From the human T2T-CHM13v2.0 reference genome, Homo sapiens: DNA of 64,000 nucleotides. Below, one piece after another: positions 1 through 50,320 of the stretch. The stretch lies in assembly GCF_009914755.1 (NCBI RefSeq), contig NC_060943.1, one strand, 5' to 3'. Position numbers and translations under genes: made by a program. Numbering within the stretch: the first letter of the stretch is position 1; every line of letters begins with the position of its first letter. The notes under the pieces are model-generated. The model did no database searches and was not told where the DNA came from. It was given only the letters and a program-made list of their open reading frames with translations.

Positions 1-244
1 AATAAATAAAGGTCTTGGTGGAACCAGATCAGCTCTGCCACAGCTCATTATTCTGTCATTTGTTGGCACCTACTGTGTACCCAGACCTGCTCCAAGACCC
101 TGAAGGGAGGGAAAACTGTCATAGTCATTTCATAGACAGGGAGACTGGGCTCAGGGCAGATGGGAACCCCCTGAGATCACCTGGTGGACAGGGTGGAGGC
201 AGGGTCCACCTCTTCTCCTGCACCCACTTCCCACTCCTACTTAC

Positions 245-5750: not shown

Positions 5751-6626
5751 TCTCCTGTTTCTAACATGTGCGTGATGTAGCCCATCCCCGAGAGCTCTTT
5801 GAGGGGGTTACAACCGAACATCCAAAGACTGCGACTGGATGACCATATTGCAAAGGGACAAACTGAGATCTAGCTCACATGGTGGACACGTGGACTGGAA
5901 ACAGCTTCTTGGGCTCTTCTACCTGGAGGAGGCCGGGGTTCTGCCTAGCTCCTGCGTGCGCCTTAGTCTAGAGAGACCCCACTCCTAGCCAACTTGCTCA
6001 CACCCTTGGCTACCTGCCACGCCCCCAGCGTTCCAGGCTCCACCCTCAGCCCATAAGGCTCCGCCCCACGGCCGCCGACCACGCCCCCAGCTAGCCGGGT
6101 CTTGCCCTAGGCTCCCCCACTCCTCCACTTCATCTTCAGCCTGAACGTTCCGCCTGTTATCTTCCACCTCCGGGTCTTTGCACAGGCCGTGCTTTCTGCC
6201 CGGCCCACCCTCCTCCCTCTCCACACTACCTGTCCCGTTCTACCCTCAAACCCTGTCTTTCCCTCTGGCTCCTCCTCTTTGGGGTCAGAGGTCAGAGAAA
6301 GGGCGTAGGGCAAGAACTGGGGCGCTAGAGAAGGCGGTGACCTGGGGGTGGGTTTTCAAGAAGGGCAGGCGGAAGCGGCACCGACAGGAAGACAACCGGG
6401 ACCGCCTGAGACTCGGAGCTCCCGGCCGAGGGCCAGTGTCCGGCTGGTCCCGGCCAAGACTTTTGGGTCAAAGGTCACCGTATCCCCGTCCACGAGCTGG
6501 GTCGGCACCCCGCGTAGGCTCAGATCTGGGTAGAGGTGGGGGATTTGGCAGCATTCGGTCCAAGTATGACCGGGTCTGAGTTGGGTCTGATCACGTCGAA
6601 TTGGACTTGGTCACGAAGAGTTTGTT

Positions 6627-6840
6627 CGATGAGTTCGGGAGAATTCGGCTACGTCCGATTGAGCTCGGGAGACTTCGGATAAGTTCGAGCTTGTTCGCCT
6701 AAGTCCGGTTACGCTCGGTCTGCTTCGAACAAGTCCGGGTGACGCTCGGGCCGGGTCGGGCATGTTCGGTCACGTCCGGCTACATGAGGGCTAGTTCGGG
6801 CATCTCCGACTAAGACCGGCCGCGCTCGGCCTGTTCCGTC
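6627..6840. repeat. Degenerate 10-bp repeat with a nearly invariant CpG (consensus approximately NAGTTCGGNN), about 21 units
   Basis: CpGs every 10 bp from 6636 to 6736, then from 6747 to 6837 (6787 missing). Confidence 0.88.
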
Positions 6841-8376
6841 CGACTCCAGCGGGTTTAGCAGCACCGGGATGAACCCCACGGCCAGCCGAAGGGGCGGGGC
6901 TTCTTAACCCTTCCCTGGCCCGTCTGGGGTGCGCCGTGGGCGCTGTGGTGCAATGGGAGACGCTCTTAGGGGCGGACTGGAGGCGGCGGATAACCCAGAT
7001 CTGCCCCTCGACGGGGAGGCATGCGGATCGCGACCCCCTACCCCTCTCTCGGCTCTCCCCAAGGGTTCCAGAAAAGCGCGTCTGTGGACAAATAGGGAAA
7101 CTGAGGCCAGGAGCGGCCACAGGGCGTGCAAATCCGGATCCCGGGCGCGGAGGGTTAAGGACTGGGCCCGGGTTTTCTTGGGGCGGGGGAGGCTGTTTTT
7201 CTTTCTGCTCTAAACTTAGCCGGGAGCGGCGGGGTCAGGCTGTGGTTCCATGACGCGGGCGGTGCGGGGGTAGGGCCCCCCGGCTGTGGGAACGGCGCGG
7301 CTGCCCATTGGCCAGGGGGGTAAACTGAGCCAGGGAGGCTCGGACTTGGGTTCGGGTCTGGCCTGCGCGGGGCCGGCCCTCGTTCATCCTCACTTCTGAG
7401 TACCCGCGACGCGCCCTCGACGTCCCTGCGCTGTCTCTAGCGCCTTCAAAAGGGAATGTGCTTCGCTAGTGTTTGGTGCCCCGAGGTCGCTCTCCAGGAC
7501 ACGGAACCCCCACTCTCCCACTCCCTGGTTGAAATGGAACCACCAGGAACCACGGTCATACCTTCTCCCTCCAACCCCAGCTATGACCTTGGAGAGGGAC
7601 CTCCCCTCTCAGCCTTTGGGTGCCAGACTTACCAAGTGGGTGCCAATTCGGCGCGGACCAAGCGCAGGATGCCAGCCACAGTCGGCGCCCACAAGCCCCA
7701 CTCCGAACCCCAGCCTTGCCCCCATCCCTCCCCACGAGGTCACAGTCGTTTCTGGAAAGGCAGGGATTCGAACCCAGAGGGGTGGACCGAGTGCTTAGAG
7801 GATGCAGCGCAAGCAGCTGCCGGGCGCAGGCGCGCGCTCAGCCTGGGACTCCCGAACGCCCTGCCTCGAAAACCCCCTCAATTCAGGTCTTCCTCCGTGG
7901 ACACCCAGAGTTCATTGTGAGGCCCCCAGGGCATCTCTTTGCTGGCACTGGGACAGGATGCTGGTGGGAGGGGGCACCAAGGGAAGGAGTGCCCCTTCCC
8001 CCTCCTCCCACTGCCAGGACGCACAGCCTGCCTGCCCCAGGCCGGCGAGGGTCAGGAGGAGACGTGAGCCTCAGCCCGTCCCACTCTGGGCCTCACAGCT
8101 GGAAGGAGACAGACGGCTGGTCCCCTGGGCCTATATCCAGGCGGCGGGTGGAGACAGACAGAGACAGAGAGAGACAGAGTCACCAACTGCGAGACAAAAG
8201 TAGGGTAAGGTAGGGTAGAGGGAGAGAGATACAGAGAAAGCGAGGGAGAGGCAGAGCGTCCAAGCCCGGACTCCGGCCCCGGCCCCAGCTGTCCCTGGCC
8301 TTGTCCCTGTCCCTGCCCTTCCCACCTCCACACCGGGCGTCCCGGTGACCCCGCCAGGCCCTCTGTCCAGCCTCAC

Positions 8377-14949: not shown

Positions 14950-15500
14950 CCGCCCCCTGGAGAAGCAAGGACCCTCCCCCACTCCCGCCAGGCCCCGCGC
15001 GCCCCTCCCCCGCGCTGCAGGAGGCCCCTGCCCCGGCCACCTACCGCCTGCAGGAGGAAACGGGCCAGGAGAGCCGCGACTTCCTGAGCTCCGGCCGCGG
15101 GCTCAGGTCCCTCTCGCGGCAGCCCGCGGACTTGTCCGGATCCGAATAGAAGCGCTGTTGGATGCGGATGGGGCGCCGGGGTTGCCGCCACAGGTGCTTC
15201 GGGGCTCTGGTCATGCTGTGGCGGCCGCGAGAGCGACTCAACCTGCTGCAAGCCTCTGCCCCTTCGCCGACCCCCAGGTTCTCCATGCGCCAGAGAAAGG
15301 GGTCTGGGATAGCAGGGAGCAGGACTCGTCCCCGTGAGCGGGCGCCGAGGAGCGTCTGCTCCCGGGTCCGGCCCAGGGCCGGGAGTGGAGGCGACAGCGA
15401 GGAGCTGTCCGCGCCGGAGGTGCTGAAGCGGTAGAAGGTGGAACTGGGGCTCAAGGTGGGGCCGACACCGAGGAGCTGTCGATGCCCAGATGGTGCTGAA
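14950..15500. promoter_or_regulatory. CpG island over the PDE4C1 first coding exon
   Basis: Dense CpG around exon 15045-15286. Confidence 0.8.
15045..15286 (-). CDS. PDE4C: First coding exon of PDE4C1 (MENLGVGEG...APKHLWRQP...RKSRLSWPVSSCRR)
   Basis: ATG at 15286; phase-2 donor CG|gtagg; PKHLWR and R-x-SWP motifs as in PDE4A4/PDE4D4-type N-termini; probable upstream acceptor at 15496/15495. Confidence 0.94.
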
Positions 15501-29816: not shown

Positions 29817-30254
29817 CTGCAGAAATGGTTCTGAGACCTCCAGACCACTGGGAGCCCAGGTACGGCCCTGTGGGACACCCCCTAGACAGAAGCTCACTCC
29901 CACACTCTCTGCACCCTCCCTTGAACCCCAAGGAACTAAATCAAGGTGGCATGGACCACACCACAGGCACCAGTGTGAGACACCCGCCCGGACCTTGCAG
30001 CGGTCCCCATCCAGGGACAGCAGCCAGGTGCCCAAAGCCCCTCCCCACACCTGTCCGGGTTCAGCAGCCTGGGTGGGGGCATCAGGACTGGCGAAACAAG
30101 GTCTCCTGGCCCCAGACACATGGGAGACCCATTCAGCTCCCAGAGTGGCTCTGATGGTTTCAGGGGGATTACGAGACCCCAGCACCTCTCCTGAGACGCC
30201 CCCAAGCTCAAGAATAAGCTTGCTCCAGGAGGCCCAGGCATGTCTGGCACTTAC

Positions 30255-30330
30255 CACCACTGCGGAGTCCTGCCTGGGTCCCATGACCTGCTGGCTAGTG
30301 AGGGAAGGAGGGGAGAAAATGACCTGACCA
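30255..30330 (-). other. PDE4C: Probable non-coding first exon of distal PDE4C transcripts (5' end approximate)
   Basis: Strong donor GTG|gtaagt at 30255/30254; purine/pyrimidine-skewed promoter-like tract upstream at 30480-30660. Confidence 0.5.
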
Positions 30331-40204: not shown

Positions 40205-43200
40205 CTGGAGTATAGTGGAGTTCAGGGATGCCTTGTGACTAACGGCAGGATTCTGGGGGCTATAGGAGTCCTGCCGTCTCCACGGTGACTCCTGGTTAAA
40301 AAGGGGTGGCAGGGAACCACTTGGGGAAGACTCATAGCCTAGAGACACCCTCCGAACTCCCGGGGCCAGCGGAGGAATGACCGAGGAGTGTGTCATCTCC
40401 CCAGTGCGGATGACGGGCCTTACCTCTGCAGAGGGCCTGTGGGTGGGGTTTGCACCACTTCGGGCTGAGGCCTGGGATGGTTGTCTTTGCACATACTGTA
40501 AGGGCCTAACCCTGGCCACAGAACTTTCTAGCAGTTCTGGAACAATCCTACCATGCACGGATCTGTAGGAATTTTTAGGGCCCATGGCGTCCCAGCGGCT
40601 GCTCGGAGCCATGTTTCCAGACACTGTTTTCTGGAGTGGATTGGGGACAGCTTCTGTCTGGAAGGGACTGGACAATGCCCTTCTAGCCGAGGACGGATAT
40701 AGTGGCACATGTGAGACCATGCTGGTGGTCCCTGACCTCTGAAGAAGACTAGGATTCCCCATCCTGCCCACAGACACTGAAAGCAATCTGAAAGCCTCAG
40801 TACTGCCACGGGCCAGCTGGGGTGATCCTGAGACTACATTAGAAGCCACTGTACCCTGAGAGTGATTTGGGGGTATGACGTGAGTGACAGACCCCTGTTG
40901 ATAAACTGAGGGGGACTTAGTGGCTAAACCCGGGGCCTGGAAAGGGACAGGGACCATGCCACTAGCATGGCTGGGAGCCACCTCCCTTGGGGAAGAGACC
41001 CTTTCTCAGACAGGGACCTATGATCATGGCCCCCATCAGCTCCCAGAGGACTGGAGTACATCCACTGGGTTGCACCAGTGACCCTGGCTTTGCTGAATAG
41101 GTCATTGGATCCACTTGATCCTGACACTTGGAACACAGCCTCATCCAATTCTCCTAGCTTGGCTTGGTCCCCTGTGACCCCAGATGGCATTATCCTAGCA
41201 TCTTGGCTCAATTGTAAGGCTCTTGATAGAACCGTGGGCACTCGGTGTAGACTCCTCACTGTGCCACTAGCTGCCGGGGCTGAGGAGTGACCTGGAGCCA
41301 GACTGGTGGTGTGGGGCATCTGCAAGGGGGCTAAAGACCTCTCCCCAGCCAGGGCTTTGAGGTAAGGAGGGGCAGTGATGTCAATCACCATGGGCCCCTT
41401 GGAGCAGCTCTGAGCCACACTAGAGGCCCCCATCATTGGCACAGAACCAGGGGGGACAACTGGGCTCACCCGACTCACTACTGAACCTGGGAGCAAGTTT
41501 GGAGCAGCTAAGCTAGCGGAGGGTCTTACAGATAGACTTGGCTTCTTTCTGTCTGCCATCAGACTGGGAGCCACCCAACTGGACACAGAGCCTGCGGGAA
41601 GGCTGTGACCCATGCCTCGGATGGTGGAGCCCGGGGGAAGGCTGGAGGTTATGCCACCAGGCAGAGTGCCTGGGACTGCGCCCGTGCTCATTCTACTGGC
41701 TACAAAACCTCCTGCCGCACCACGACCAGCCCTGCTCTTCAGAGAGTCCTGCGGAATCACATCTCTCTGCTGGTAACTGGGTGGGACCATGGATGCCTCA
41801 GAAGGGTGCCAGCAGTCTATGTTTTTTGGAATAACCACACTGATCTGGGAGCTGCTGGGGTCCATGCTGTTCAGGGAAAGATTAGACTGAGTCACGGCCA
41901 GTCTGTTGGGCACTGAAGCCAGAGAGGGGCTGGGGGCCATCCCTGTGGTTCCAGAGGGATGTGTCAAAGGGCCACCTGCCTCTAAGACCTGGGATGCAAG
42001 GGAAGCCATGCCATTGGCCACCTGACATTGACTTTGGCCCATGCCAGTTGCTATGGTTCTCCAGGGGAGATTCCCAGCTAGGCCAGGAGATGTGGTCCCC
42101 TGAGACCCACTGGGGAACATAGCATCAGCCAAAGGCTCCTGGGGATGGCTTACAGCCACACCCCTGAACAGAGGCGTGATTCACTGGCCTACACAACAGG
42201 CCTCCTCATCAGCATGAGAGAGATTTGGTGTTGAAACACTAACCACAGAGGGTGGACACACATGCCTCCCACCAACCCTGGGTGGATGATGGAACCCAAG
42301 GGACACGTCGTTGAACTTGAAGTCCGGGGGGCTGGATACCATCTCACTAACCATCAGAGGTTCTTCACATAGGTTCACCCCAGTACCCAGGGATGGCTGG
42401 TTCAGACCCTGGTCCATATTTCCAGCCACAGAGGGATATGGTCCACCCAGGCTAACTGAAACAAACGCTGATGGGTGACACAGACACGGGGCTACTGAGT
42501 CCACCCTTGAACACTGCAGATTTGAATCCAGCCTAGAGCCCCAGCATGGCTCATTGAGGCCATGACATGTACCACTGACCACAGATGGCTGGGATCGGCT
42601 TGGGGCCAACCTAGTGTCCGGGGGTGACTGAGCCAGGCTTAGGGCTTCCGTGTGGGCCACAGATGGTGGGAATAGGCTGGGGGCTATAGCTGGCTCGGCT
42701 AGGCTGGAGGCTAGGGTACAGGATGAATTTGTCTTGCCTGGACTGGAGGCCACAGATGGTTGGGCTTGCCTTGGGGATACTGCAGTGGTCTGAGATGGGT
42801 GGGCTAGGCTGGAGCCCGCCCCACTGGCCACATATGGGTGAGCTAGACTTGGAGACAACCCATGGGGTCCTGATGGGTGGGCTAGGCTTGGGGACACACC
42901 AATGGCTTGAGATGGCTGGGCTGGGCTTAAGGACACCACACAGGTCATAGGTTGGTGGGCTAGCCTTGAAGACATCCCTGTGGCTTGAGACGGCTGGGCT
43001 AGGCTTGGGGATACACCACAGGCCATAGGTTGATGAGCTGGTCTTAAGGGCACTGCAGTGGTGGCCTGAGATAGCTGGGCAAGGCTTGGGGACACCTCAC
43101 TGGGCATAGATCGATGAACCTGGCTTGGGGACACCATACAGGTCATAGATGCATGAGCTCTGCTAGGGGACATCCTGCTGGTTATAGATGCGTGAGCTTG

Positions 43201-46200
43201 GTTTGGGGACACCCTGGAGGCCACTGGTGGGTAATCTTGTCTAGGGGACATCCCACTGGCTTGAGATGGCTGGGCTAGGCTTGAGGAAACCCTACTGGCC
43301 ACAGATTGGTGGGCTACACTTGGGGACACCCCAGTGGCCTGAGATGGCCAGGTCAAGCTTGGGGATTCCCCAGTGGACTGAGGAGGCTGGGCCAGGCTTG
43401 GAGACTCCCGAATGGCCATAGATGGGTGAGCTAGGGTTGGGGACACTCCAATGGTGTGAAATGGCATGGCTAGGCTTGGGGACACTCCAATGGTCTGAGA
43501 TGGCATGGCTAGGCTTGGGGACACTCCAATAGTCTGAGATGACATGGCTAGGCTTGGGGACACTCTGATGGTCAGAGATGGCTGGGTCAGGCTTGGAGAC
43601 TCCCCAGTGGGCTGAGATGGGTAGGCTGGGCTTGGGGACATCTCAGTGGGCTGAGATGGGTAGGCTGGGCTTGGGGACTCCCCAGTGACCACAGATGGGT
43701 CGCCTGGGCTTGGGGACACCTCAGTGGCCATAAATGGGTAGGCTGGGCTTGGGAACACCTCAGTGCGCTGATATGACTGGGCCAGGCTTGGAGACTCCCC
43801 AGTGACCACAGATGGGTAGGCTGAGCTTGGGGACACCTCAGTGGGCTGAGATGGCTGGGCAAGGCTAGGGGACTCCCCAGTGGCCACACATGGATAGTCT
43901 GGGCTTGGGGACACCTCAGTGGGCTGAAATGGGTAGCCTGGGCTTGGGGACACCTCAGTGGCCATAGATAGGTAGCCTGAGCTTGGGGACATCTCAGTAG
44001 GCTGAGATGAGTAGTCTGGGCTTGGGGACACTTCAGTGGCCACAGATAGGTAGCCTGAGCTTGGGGACACCTCAGTGAGCTGAGATGGGTAGCCTGGGCT
44101 TGGGGACACCTCAGTGGCCACAGATAGGTAGCCTGAGCTTGGGGATATCTCAGTGGGCTGATATGGGTAGGTTGGGCTTGGGGACACCTCAGTGGCCACA
44201 GATGGGTATTCTGGGCTTGGGGACATCTCAATGGCCATAGATAGGTAGCCTGGGTTTGGGGACACCTCAGTGGGCTGATATGAGTAGGCTGCACTTGGGG
44301 ACACCTCAGTGAGCTGATATGGGTGGGCTGGGCTTGGAGATACCTCAGTGGGCTGAAATGGCTGTGCCAGGGTTGGGTACTCCCTAATGGCCTGAGATGG
44401 GTAGGTTGGACTTGGGGACACCTCAGTGGGCTGAAATGGCTGAGCCAGCATTGGGTACTCCCCAACAGACTGAGATGGGTAGTCTGGACTTGGAGACACC
44501 CCAAAGGCTTGAGATGGCTGGGCCAGATTTGAGGTTACCCCAGGGGCTTGAGATGGCTGGGCTAGGCTTGAGGGCTCCCCACTGTCCATAGATGGCTGGG
44601 CTAGGTTTTGGGACCCCCAGTTAGCCATTGATTGGTGACCTTGGTCTGAGGCCACTCTAAAGGTCCTTGATGGGTGTCCTCGGCTTGGGGACCTCCTAGT
44701 CACCACAGATGGCTGTGCTGGTCTTGGTGTCACTCTATTAGGCACAGAGGAGTGTGGTAGCCTTGGGGTCACCCAATTACCCATAGATGGGCAGGTTAGC
44801 CTTGGGGATACCTTACTGGATGCTATATGCTGGGATAGGCTTGGGGCCAGCCTACTGAACCCTGATGCCTGGCCTAGGTTTGGGGCTACCCTACTGGCCA
44901 GTGTAGCCTGGGACACAATTGGGGCCAAGCTCTTGGCCACAGATGGTGGCTTATATGCAGTGGAGACCACAGTACCTAAAGACAGAGTCCTCCTCAGCTC
45001 TGTCTTGACGGTTGCCTGGGACACCTCAATCAGATTCACAGAGCTCTTGCCTAAGGAGAACTTGTGGATCTCAGCCTCTGAGCCCCAGTGAACACGCAAG
45101 GTCAAGCAGTTAGACACTGAGCTGTGTTGGAAACTGGGCACTTTCTCCGAGGCTGGAGTGGGCCGGTAGGGGAAGTGTAGGGTCATGTACCTATAGCCGG
45201 TTTCAGTCTCTTGCGTATCCTTAAACCTCTGGAGTGTCCCCATGGACTCCGGAGGAAAAACAGACTTCACCGCAAGGTCCCCTTCTAAACTGCTTTCCCG
45301 TGACTCATCTATCTTGTTGACGGCAGGCAGGCTGGCCACAGACATAGTGGAAAGGCTGAGGGAACTAGAACTTTGCAGAGAGCTTTCGGAATTGTTCTCC
45401 TGACTGTAGGTCACAAAGCCCTGGGAGAAGCTCCTGGCCAGGTCACCGTCTCGATCCTGTGGCAAACCACCTACTGGCTCACCGAGGATGGATGGCTGGT
45501 GGTCTGTTGCTAGCTTCTGGGGGCAGAGCAGGGCAGACACAGAACCCTGTGTTCGATTCCTCCCCTGTCCACAGACAGATGTCTTGGGACGAACTTGAGC
45601 CAATGCACTGCCGGGGGAAGCTTGAAACAGACCATGAGTCTTGGATGCCTGAGTTTTGGTCACCATGGTGACCTGCAAGGGACTTGGGGCCCCCTTGTCT
45701 ATCACCTCCCTAGTACCCGGGGGGGCCTGTTTGCGATTTGGGGGCTGATACCTCCTCCCCAGGCTCTCCCTGGAAGCCCTGGATGCCTGCTGCTGGCCTC
45801 TGGCCACTAAGGGTTGGTAGAGACCACGATGTACCCCTGAGGACTGACACCAAGGCAGGCCCCCACAGGTGAGGTAAGGCTGGTGAACATGGGCAGCCCT
45901 CCCACCACCCACGCTGCAAGGAAGCCTACCCGAGGCCACCCTGCCCTCCCTGGTCGATAGATAAGAGGCCACCCTGCTGACCACATGTGGCCTGTGGCAG
46001 CTCGGGGCTGTGCCATAGATCACAGAGGGCTGGTTCATGCTTGGGCCCACACAGTTGGCAATGAGAGGCTGCCACAGACTCGGGGGTGGCTGCATGTGGG
46101 ACAGCTTGAGCAAACTGGGGCCCTCCCCACTCCCCTCGGGGTTAAAATCTGATGCCAATGTGCCAGGCTCCAGGGTCGGGCATGCTTCTTCCTTTTGGAA

Positions 46201-46462: not shown

Positions 46463-50320
<3,858 letters not shown>

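What the first reader, a model, noticed from the sequence alone, without database searches (positions are those of the whole stretch)
6627..6840. Helically phased CpG array: about 21 degenerate 10-mers in which the CG is almost invariant
Seen: CpGs at 6636, 6646, 6656, 6666, 6676, 6686, 6696, 6706, 6716, 6726 and 6736. After a 1-nt slip they continue at 6747, 6757, 6767, 6777, 6797, 6807, 6817, 6827 and 6837. Cores are mostly TTCG, CTCG or TCCG, while the other positions vary widely. In an ordinary decaying tandem repeat CpG is the first thing lost, so this pattern is the reverse of expectation. Established: the SAND-domain factor DEAF1 binds unmethylated TTCG motifs spaced roughly one helical turn apart, and DNMT3A/3L has been proposed to favour 8-10 bp CpG spacing. 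Inference: a methylation-sensitive multivalent binding platform or nucleosome-phasing element within the PDE4C CpG island.
Basis: partly seen in the sequence, partly recalled or inferred. Interest (0 to 1): 0.7.

Follow-up and report, generated by a model that had tools for sequence, protein, structure and literature searches.

The report
Tandem p53 half-site array at PDE4C
This is a 200-base run of twenty degenerate 10-base repeats, four of them perfect half-sites for the tumour suppressor p53, just upstream of an alternative start of the PDE4C gene and under a published p63 binding peak; the evenly spaced CGs are the joints between the repeats, and the array likely explains why PDE4C responds to p53 in human but not mouse cells.

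Summary
The 10-bp CpG phasing is real: 20 of 21 register positions, against 7.1±1.0 in shuffles. Cut at C|G, 6637-6837 is 20 decamers, four of them perfect in-phase p53 half-sites. A published meta-analysis puts a p63 peak (15 of 20 datasets) over the array and prints its response element, which is window 6760-6778. Human PDE4C has p53 peaks in 20 of 28 datasets, at TSS distances that fit the array, and expression score 11; mouse Pde4c scores 0 and 0 of 9. Nineteen other phased-CG arrays hold 0 perfect half-sites in 96 units, and a pre-registered test found no p53 enrichment at 5 of 5 such genes held. So CG phasing looks like an inherited scaffold, and the cores make this copy special. Unexplained: junction C and G are better kept (1/40 departures) than the p53 core C and G (16/40). 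One DEAF1 consensus pair exists; occupancy is untested. Verdict: a catalogued p53/p63 site with an array architecture I did not find described; a likely human member of the fuzzy-tandem-repeat p53 element class.

The parts
6637..6837 (.). Fuzzy tandem array of 20 decamers (one is 11 nt, slip at 6737), general form G-R-N-Y-W-N-G-Y-Y-C, in register with the p53 half-site RRRCWWGYYY
   Evidence: 4 units with 0 mismatches, 2 with 1, 1 with 2, 12 with 3, 1 with 6; single copy by DNA search of the genome
6636..6838 (.). Phased CpGs = junctions between the last base (C) of one decamer and the first base (G) of the next
   Evidence: C at position 10 in 19 of 20 units, G at position 1 in 20 of 20
6687..6696 (.). 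Perfect p53 half-site GAGCTTGTTC; with 6677-6686 a spacer-less 20-mer with 1 mismatch (at a core C)
6727..6736 (.). Perfect p53 half-site GAACAAGTCC
6758..6777 (.). Perfect half-site GGGCATGTTC plus GGTCACGTCC: full site with 2 mismatches and all four core C/G intact; this is the catalogued p53+p63-class response element (printed 19-mer = 6760-6778)
6788..6807 (.). Perfect half-site GGGCTAGTTC plus a half-site with 1 mismatch (at a core G)
6468..7034 (.). Published p63 ChIP-seq peak (hg38 chr19:18224360-18224927, 15 of 20 datasets), centre about 6750
   Evidence: PMC7735755 supplement rows; mapped to the window through the printed element
6634..6648 (+). Single match to the DEAF1 8-space consensus TTCGK-N5-TTCGK; occupancy untested
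   Evidence: consensus from PMC4274154; match
6557..6636 (.). Probable decayed continuation of the array, overlapping the TSS; junctions partly TG or AG, spacing 9-11
   Evidence: junction-free profile tiles on to 6579; left limit by eye; not calibrated
6342..6600 (-). Alternative first exon of PDE4C, starting 37 nt from the array; has a stop in the PDE4C frame, so translation would start in the next exon at residue 75 of the selected isoform, just before the RRESF motif
   Evidence: hub annotation; transcript NM_001098819 is listed 150 nt from the peak centre
6653..6892 (.). RefSeq-annotated enhancer, nearly coextensive with the array
   Evidence: hub annotation (assay behind it not seen)

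Best explanation
The element is a fuzzy tandem array of 10-bp units, four of which are perfect p53 half-sites, lying under a published p63 peak, and it likely acts as the p53-responsive enhancer-promoter of the PDE4C transcript that starts at 6600. Steps: (1) shown: abutting decamers end in YYC and start with GR, so a CG falls at each joint. (2) Inferred: the scaffold descends from a GC-rich (GGCTC)n-like repeat of a kind found at other CpG-island promoters, expanded locally; that scaffold already gives 6 of 10 matches to the p53 half-site. (3) Shown as a pattern, inferred as history: in this copy the middles of some units became RCWWG, giving several overlapping full sites, the best at 6758-6777. 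(4) Shown by published ChIP-seq: p63 binds here; p53 binds at a TSS distance that fits here. (5) Inferred: bound p53 activates the adjacent TSS after some stresses, raising a long PDE4C form without a unique N-terminus and so cAMP breakdown. (6) Inferred: the mouse lacks an equivalent site. The CGs likely persist because the island is unmethylated and they are the conserved frame of the repeat, with no function of their own required.
For: Four perfect half-sites in one phase within 110 nt, each with a different WW core; the rest of the 64 kb has 18 scattered ones. With the CG-flanking columns kept and cores randomised, P(>=4) <= 1e-5; with columns shuffled among units, P = 0.0057. p63 peak in 15 of 20 datasets with printed element = 6760-6778. 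p53 peak in 20 of 28 human datasets, 19 of the 20 at 115-185 nt from a TSS (median 152; window 6752 if that TSS is 6600), expression score 11 on a -20..20 scale; mouse 0 and 0 of 9. PDE4C named as p53-bound in PMC3048874 and as a candidate target in PMC3740285. Nineteen comparison arrays: 0 of 96 units perfect vs 4 of 20 here (p = 0.0007), while the GYYY quarter is equally common (64/96 vs 12/20). One unit here is identical to a unit of the comparison arrays and two more differ by one base. Same architecture drives three mouse-specific targets in PMC3386156.
Against: Junction bases depart from the column majority 1 of 40 times, the p53 core C and G 16 of 40 (Fisher 5e-5; inflated by boundary choice); p53 recognition does not predict this. 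13 of 20 units have 3 or more mismatches, and the two 1-mismatch full sites are hit at a core base. The p53 table gives distances without naming the TSS, and a search for peak coordinates in those supplements found none, so p53 placement is inferred. Induction is conditional: in U2OS up with doxorubicin, unchanged with Nutlin; bound after both drugs but induced mainly by actinomycin D. No reporter, deletion or isoform-resolved data seen. No mammalian orthologue could be examined, so mouse absence of the array is not shown, only absence of p53 peaks within 5 kb of its TSS.
Confidence: 0.72

Rival explanations
1. Dual element: a second, CpG-reading factor (DEAF1, GMEB or another SAND or CXXC protein) binds the phased YYCG junctions and keeps them constant, and p53-family sites arose later in the free middles. 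Methylation would switch off the first factor.
For: Junction over-conservation. Eight phased TTCG and one exact DEAF1 8-space pair; DEAF1 binds TTCG pairs with 6-11 nt between CpGs and is blocked by methylation. Comparison arrays also keep YCG|G, though they were found by that motif.
Against: No occupancy data seen. DEAF1 accepts spacings 6-11, so it does not require a strict 10-bp period over 20 units. Only 8 of 20 junctions are TTCG. The left part of the array has lost junction CGs.
Confidence: 0.15
2. Neutral old minisatellite in an unmethylated island; p53/p63 binding is an incidental, non-functional by-product and PDE4C induction comes from another site or indirectly.
For: Similar scaffolds without p53 cores are common. 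PMC6755996 argues that most species-specific p53 targets may be dispensable. Other perfect half-sites lie near other PDE4C exons (15128, 19178, 30216, 30236).
Against: Perfect half-sites exceed both nulls; binding recurs in 15 of 20 and 20 of 28 datasets; expression score 11; annotated enhancer coincides.
Confidence: 0.08
3. Nucleosome-phasing element: SS steps at the junctions and WW steps in the cores alternate at half a turn and would set a rotational frame. That frame is predicted to be opposite to the bend p53 imposes (core into the major groove, junction into the minor groove), so it would damp or delay binding.
For: SS at the junction step in 19 of 20 units, WW at steps 4, 5 and 8 in 6, 8 and 7 of 20; groove rules from PMC8098069; conditional induction.
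Against: The pattern follows automatically from any run of GR..WW..YC half-sites; WW content is modest; no nucleosome map examined; CpG-island promoters are often nucleosome-poor (established knowledge).
Confidence: 0.04
4. Remnant of a transposon subterminal repeat, a coding repeat or a structured RNA.
For: Many p53 sites derive from retroviral LTRs (stated in PMC3386156).
Against: One match (itself) in the genome at E <= 10 (with the tool's caveat that common words are skipped); stops in all six frames of 6540-6900; no Rfam match at E <= 1; minus-strand folding z = -0.09.
Confidence: 0.01

Closest known systems
[quoted passage not shown] 2012, PMC3386156)
   Same: Cluster of p53 half-sites inside an imperfect tandem repeat near a TSS; p53 regulation in one species and not the other; missed by ordinary repeat detection.
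   Different: Human-positive, mouse-negative; half-sites abut with no spacers in one 10-bp phase; only 4 of 20 are perfect (Rbl2: 6 of 7); junction CG nearly constant; no reporter or deletion test seen here.
Canonical p53/p63 response element at PDE4C (PMC7735755 supplement; PMC6755996 supplements)
   Same: The same place: peak and one 19-mer are already catalogued, and PDE4C is listed as a predicted direct human p53 target.
   Different: The tables list a single best element; they do not describe the 20-unit array or its CG phasing.
PIG3/TP53I3 (TGYCC)n microsatellite (named in PMC3386156)
   Same: p53 acting through a short tandem repeat at a promoter.
   Different: PIG3 has pentamers in head-to-tail order; here the unit is a decamer with palindromic half-sites, highly diverged (identity at lag 5 is 0.24).
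DEAF1 TTCG-pair elements (PMC4274154)
   Same: TTCG/TCCG motifs with CpGs 10 bp apart; one exact 8-space consensus pair.
   Different: No occupancy shown; 20 units rather than a pair; most junctions are not TTCG.
(GGCTC)n-like phased decamer repeats at other CpG-island promoters (this work)
   Same: GG......TC frame with CG at each joint; shared or near-identical units.
   Different: Shorter (2-12 units), more GC-rich, no perfect p53 half-site in 96 units.

Membership tests
Canonical p53/p63 response element | Two RRRCWWGYYY half-sites, spacer 0, core C and G intact | tested here: met
   6758-6777, 2 mismatches outside the core C/G; classed primary.p53+p63RE
Canonical p53/p63 response element | p63 occupancy in cells | tested here: met
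   15 of 20 datasets, peak mapped to 6468-7034
Canonical p53/p63 response element | p53 occupancy at this exact place | tested here: inconclusive
   20 of 28 datasets near a PDE4C TSS at distances that match the p63 peak; coordinates not seen (p53 sheet of PMC7735755 not in the stored part)
Canonical p53/p63 response element | Element drives p53-dependent transcription | not testable with these tools
   gene-level score 11 only; no reporter or deletion data seen
Fuzzy tandem repeat with clustered p53 REs | More than two half-sites clustered within an imperfect tandem repeat near a TSS | tested here: met
   array starts 37 nt from the annotated TSS
Fuzzy tandem repeat with clustered p53 REs | Species-restricted p53 regulation | tested here: met
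   human 11 and 20/28, mouse 0 and 0/9
Fuzzy tandem repeat with clustered p53 REs | Repeat sequence poorly conserved between species | not testable with these tools
   no other mammalian genome available
Fuzzy tandem repeat with clustered p53 REs | Cluster deletion removes p53 response | not testable with these tools
   bench test
DEAF1 element | Two TTCG half-sites with 6-11 nt between CpGs | tested here: met
   6634-6648
DEAF1 element | DEAF1 occupancy, methylation-sensitive | not testable with these tools
   no ChIP tracks; one literature search was not gene-specific
PIG3-type pentamer microsatellite | Head-to-tail pentamer period | tested here: not met
   lag-5 identity 0.24 vs lag-10 0.49
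Interspersed transposon-derived repeat | Multiple dispersed copies | tested here: not met
   one genome match; Dfam not available
Nucleosome-positioning sequence | Phased nucleosome dyads in cells | not testable with these tools
   only dinucleotide phase counted

The most novel reading that the evidence does not exclude
CpG-island repeats of the (GGCTC)n type are nurseries for p53-family sites: their frame is 6/10 of a half-site, and the PDE4C array is a matured human case that still carries a second code, with near-invariant phased CGs held by a methylation-sensitive reader or a nucleosome frame that gates p53 access to an alternative PDE4C promoter. The arrays upstream of SKI and GNA11 (7 of 28 p53 datasets each, at positions that fit the arrays if recalled TSS positions are right) would be early stages.
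Probability: 0.15. Interest if true: 0.7.

Novelty: new member of a known kind. Interest (0 to 1): 0.42.

Why it matters
PMC3386156 described this kind of element only for three mouse genes and noted that such repeats are hard to find. This looks like a human counterpart, and it offers a sequence reason why PDE4C is a predicted direct p53 target in human but not mouse, linking p53 to cAMP breakdown through one promoter. The regular spacing makes it a clean substrate for separating core from junction effects in a reporter library. The binding site itself and the target gene are already catalogued, which limits surprise.

Tried and rejected
Coding repeat: stops in all six frames. Structured RNA: no Rfam match, folding z = -0.09. 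Dispersed repeat: single genome match. Pentamer period: lag-5 identity 0.24. A 30-bp higher-order unit is only hinted (lag 30 identity 0.60 vs 0.46-0.58 at other multiples of 10; not tested for significance). General claim that phased-CG arrays recruit p53: suggested by SKI 7/28, GNA11 7/28 and ENHO 2/28, then tested prospectively on six genes named beforehand (note): ZHX3 0, GNAO1 0, CDK5R1 0, BRSK2 1, B4GAT1 4 but away from the array; GRK6 not in the stored part of the table. 0 of 5 reached the threshold, so the general claim is rejected. TTYH3's p53 (9/28) and p63 peaks are mostly about 1.2-1.6 kb from its TSS, not at its array. Genome patterns for a second PDE4C-like array: three-unit pattern gave 5 matches, 3 of them this array, 1 the SKI array, 1 a chr21 repeat, with 6 matches for the reversed control; a two-core pattern gave 0 and also misses this array; a TYCGR x4 pattern gave 13 matches, mostly ATTCC-like satellite, none here. 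Exact p53 peak coordinates were not obtained: none in the supplements searched, the p53 part of one table was not in the stored text, and supplements of PMC3386156 and PMC12143595 could not be seen; these may bear on placement and on whether the array was already noted.

Full report
Observation. The best-phase count at period 10 is 20, against 7.07 ± 0.97 (max 12) in 2000 dinucleotide shuffles, and no other 220-nt window of the 64 kb exceeds 10. Tandem Repeats Finder does not report it because units are only 52% alike on average. The region has CpG-island composition, so the premise that CpG should vanish first, which holds for methylated DNA (established knowledge), need not apply. A profile built without the junction columns tiles on leftwards to 6579, where several junctions read TG or AG (uncalibrated).

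Re-phasing. Cutting between C and G gives 20 decamers at 6637-6837. Against RRRCWWGYYY (as given in PMC3386156), four are perfect (6687, 6727, 6758, 6788), each with a different WW pair; two have one mismatch, one has two, twelve have three, one has six. The window holds 22 perfect half-sites in all, fewer than shuffles give (30.3 ± 4.8), so the signal is the in-phase cluster. Keeping the CG-flanking columns and randomising positions 3-7 gives four perfect units in at most 1 of 100,000 trials; randomising positions 3-6 gives P = 3e-5 to 7e-5; shuffling columns among units gives P = 0.0057 for perfect units but P = 0.37 for units with at most one mismatch. So a few units are fully canonical among degenerate ones.

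Occupancy and regulation, from published tables. PMC7735755 (passages and supplement rows seen; file cut when stored) lists a p63 peak at hg38 chr19:18224360-18224927 in 15 of 20 datasets, 150 nt from the TSS of NM_001098819, with a primary p53+p63-class element. The printed element is window 6760-6778, which places the peak at 6468-7034, centre 6750. That class name describes the motif, not p53 binding. PMC6755996 (passages and supplement rows) gives human PDE4C a p53 expression score of 11 and p53 peaks in 20 of 28 datasets, 19 of them 115-185 nt from a TSS and one at 47; mouse Pde4c scores 0 and 0 of 9. The median distance of 152 equals the p63 distance and falls at 6752 if the TSS is 6600; the table does not name the TSS, so this is inference. 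PMC3048874 (passages) shows PDE4C bound after actinomycin D and etoposide but preferentially induced by the former. A supplement row of PMC4033189 lists it as up with doxorubicin and unchanged with Nutlin in U2OS. PMC3740285 (passages) names it a candidate target. The hub annotation has an enhancer at 6653-6892.

Downstream gene. The exon at 6342-6600 begins 37 nt from the array on the minus strand. Joined to the common exons it has an in-frame stop, and the first in-frame ATG is in the next exon, at residue 75 of the selected isoform, just ahead of the RRESF motif; that this is the PKA site of UCR1 is recalled. The predicted product is a long form without a unique N-terminus. Which transcript p53 induces was not seen. 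PMC2929239 (passages) did not address this exon in what I read.

Is CG phasing special? Genome patterns found other short arrays with the same GG......TC frame. In 19 of these loci examined (chosen by me from those lists; pure pentamer runs, an LTR-like and a GGTTC locus were left out, and some hits were not fetched), 0 of 96 units are perfect half-sites and 5 have WW cores, against 4 and 8 of 20 here; the GYYY quarter is equally common. One PDE4C unit is identical to a unit in these arrays and two differ by one base. These arrays were found through their CGs, so they cannot measure CG conservation, but they show the scaffold is a recurring CpG-island repeat type. Two loci were tied to gene families by Pfam (Ski and Tweety); other names rest on recalled N-termini or positions. 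SKI and GNA11 have p53 peaks in 7 of 28 datasets each, at distances that fit their arrays if recalled TSS positions are right, but no p63 TSS rows in the stored part. A test on six genes named in advance gave 0 of 5 held genes at threshold. Phased CGs alone therefore do not recruit p53 in general.

What stays unexplained. Junction bases depart from the column majority once in 40, other columns 69 times in 160, and the p53 core C and G 16 times in 40. p53 does not need the junction more than the core. Boundary choice, an unmethylated island and GC-biased conversion (established, not tested) may suffice; a second reader is the alternative. PMC4274154 (part 2 of 4 read) shows DEAF1 binding TTCG pairs with 6-11 nt between CpGs, blocked by methylation, with an 8-space consensus at over 200 promoters. 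The array has one such match, the only one in the window, and 8 phased TTCG. By the groove rules in PMC8098069 (passages), SS junctions and WW cores would favour a nucleosome frame opposite to the p53-bound bend; this is speculation.

Comparison. The architecture matches the fuzzy tandem repeats of PMC3386156 (parts 1-3 of 6 read; supplements not seen): clustered half-sites in an imperfect repeat, species-restricted regulation. Two of four defining features are met here and two could not be tested. It is not a dispersed repeat, coding repeat or known RNA.

Novelty. The site and target are catalogued. I found no description of the array in the listings of five PDE4C searches: 31 papers with 25 listed, 5, 1, 1 and 0; one search also gave 0, and PMC4470028 does not name PDE4C in its main text. 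Subscription papers and unseen supplements are outside these searches. Verdict: new member of a known kind, interest 0.42.

Noticed in passing
L002:1482-1625 (G000:C1 about 1663110-1663250): Twelve-unit fuzzy decamer array with phased CG about 1 kb upstream of a Ski/Sno ORF; one 1-mismatch half-site. SKI has p53 peaks in 7 of 28 datasets, 6 of them at -894 to -1005, which fits the array if the recalled TSS is right.
   Followed up: partly
L052:1316-1370: Five-unit array 562 nt upstream of a G-alpha-11-like start (name recalled), with no canonical p53 20-mer in the locus; GNA11 has p53 peaks in 7 of 28 datasets at -246 to -381. Unexplained coincidence.
   Followed up: partly
L053:2634-2708: Seven-unit array upstream of a 76-aa ORF (ENHO by recall); 2 of 28 p53 datasets at +95 and +99.
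   Followed up: partly
L054:1573-1712, L056:1983-2063, L060:1714-1786: Further 7-9-unit fuzzy decamer arrays with phased CG; no p53 peaks for the two genes looked up.
   Followed up: partly
window 30216-30245: Two perfect p53 half-sites 10 nt apart next to a small annotated PDE4C exon (30255-30284) and an annotated enhancer.
   Followed up: no
window 42754-44897 and 48225-48546: 39-bp tandem repeat, about 48 copies, inside the IQCN gene span; three perfect p53 half-sites spaced exactly 156 nt apart at 48225, 48381, 48537 suggest a longer repeat in the IQCN coding exon.
   Followed up: no
window about 15200: The well-known age-associated PDE4C CpG lies, by recalled coordinate and the offset, in a different island about 8.5 kb from this array; a perfect half-site is at 15128.
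   Followed up: no
L015 (G000:C13:43361959-43362077): Pure (GGCTC)n run of about 23 copies in a GC-rich setting, a candidate length-variable repeat.
   Followed up: no
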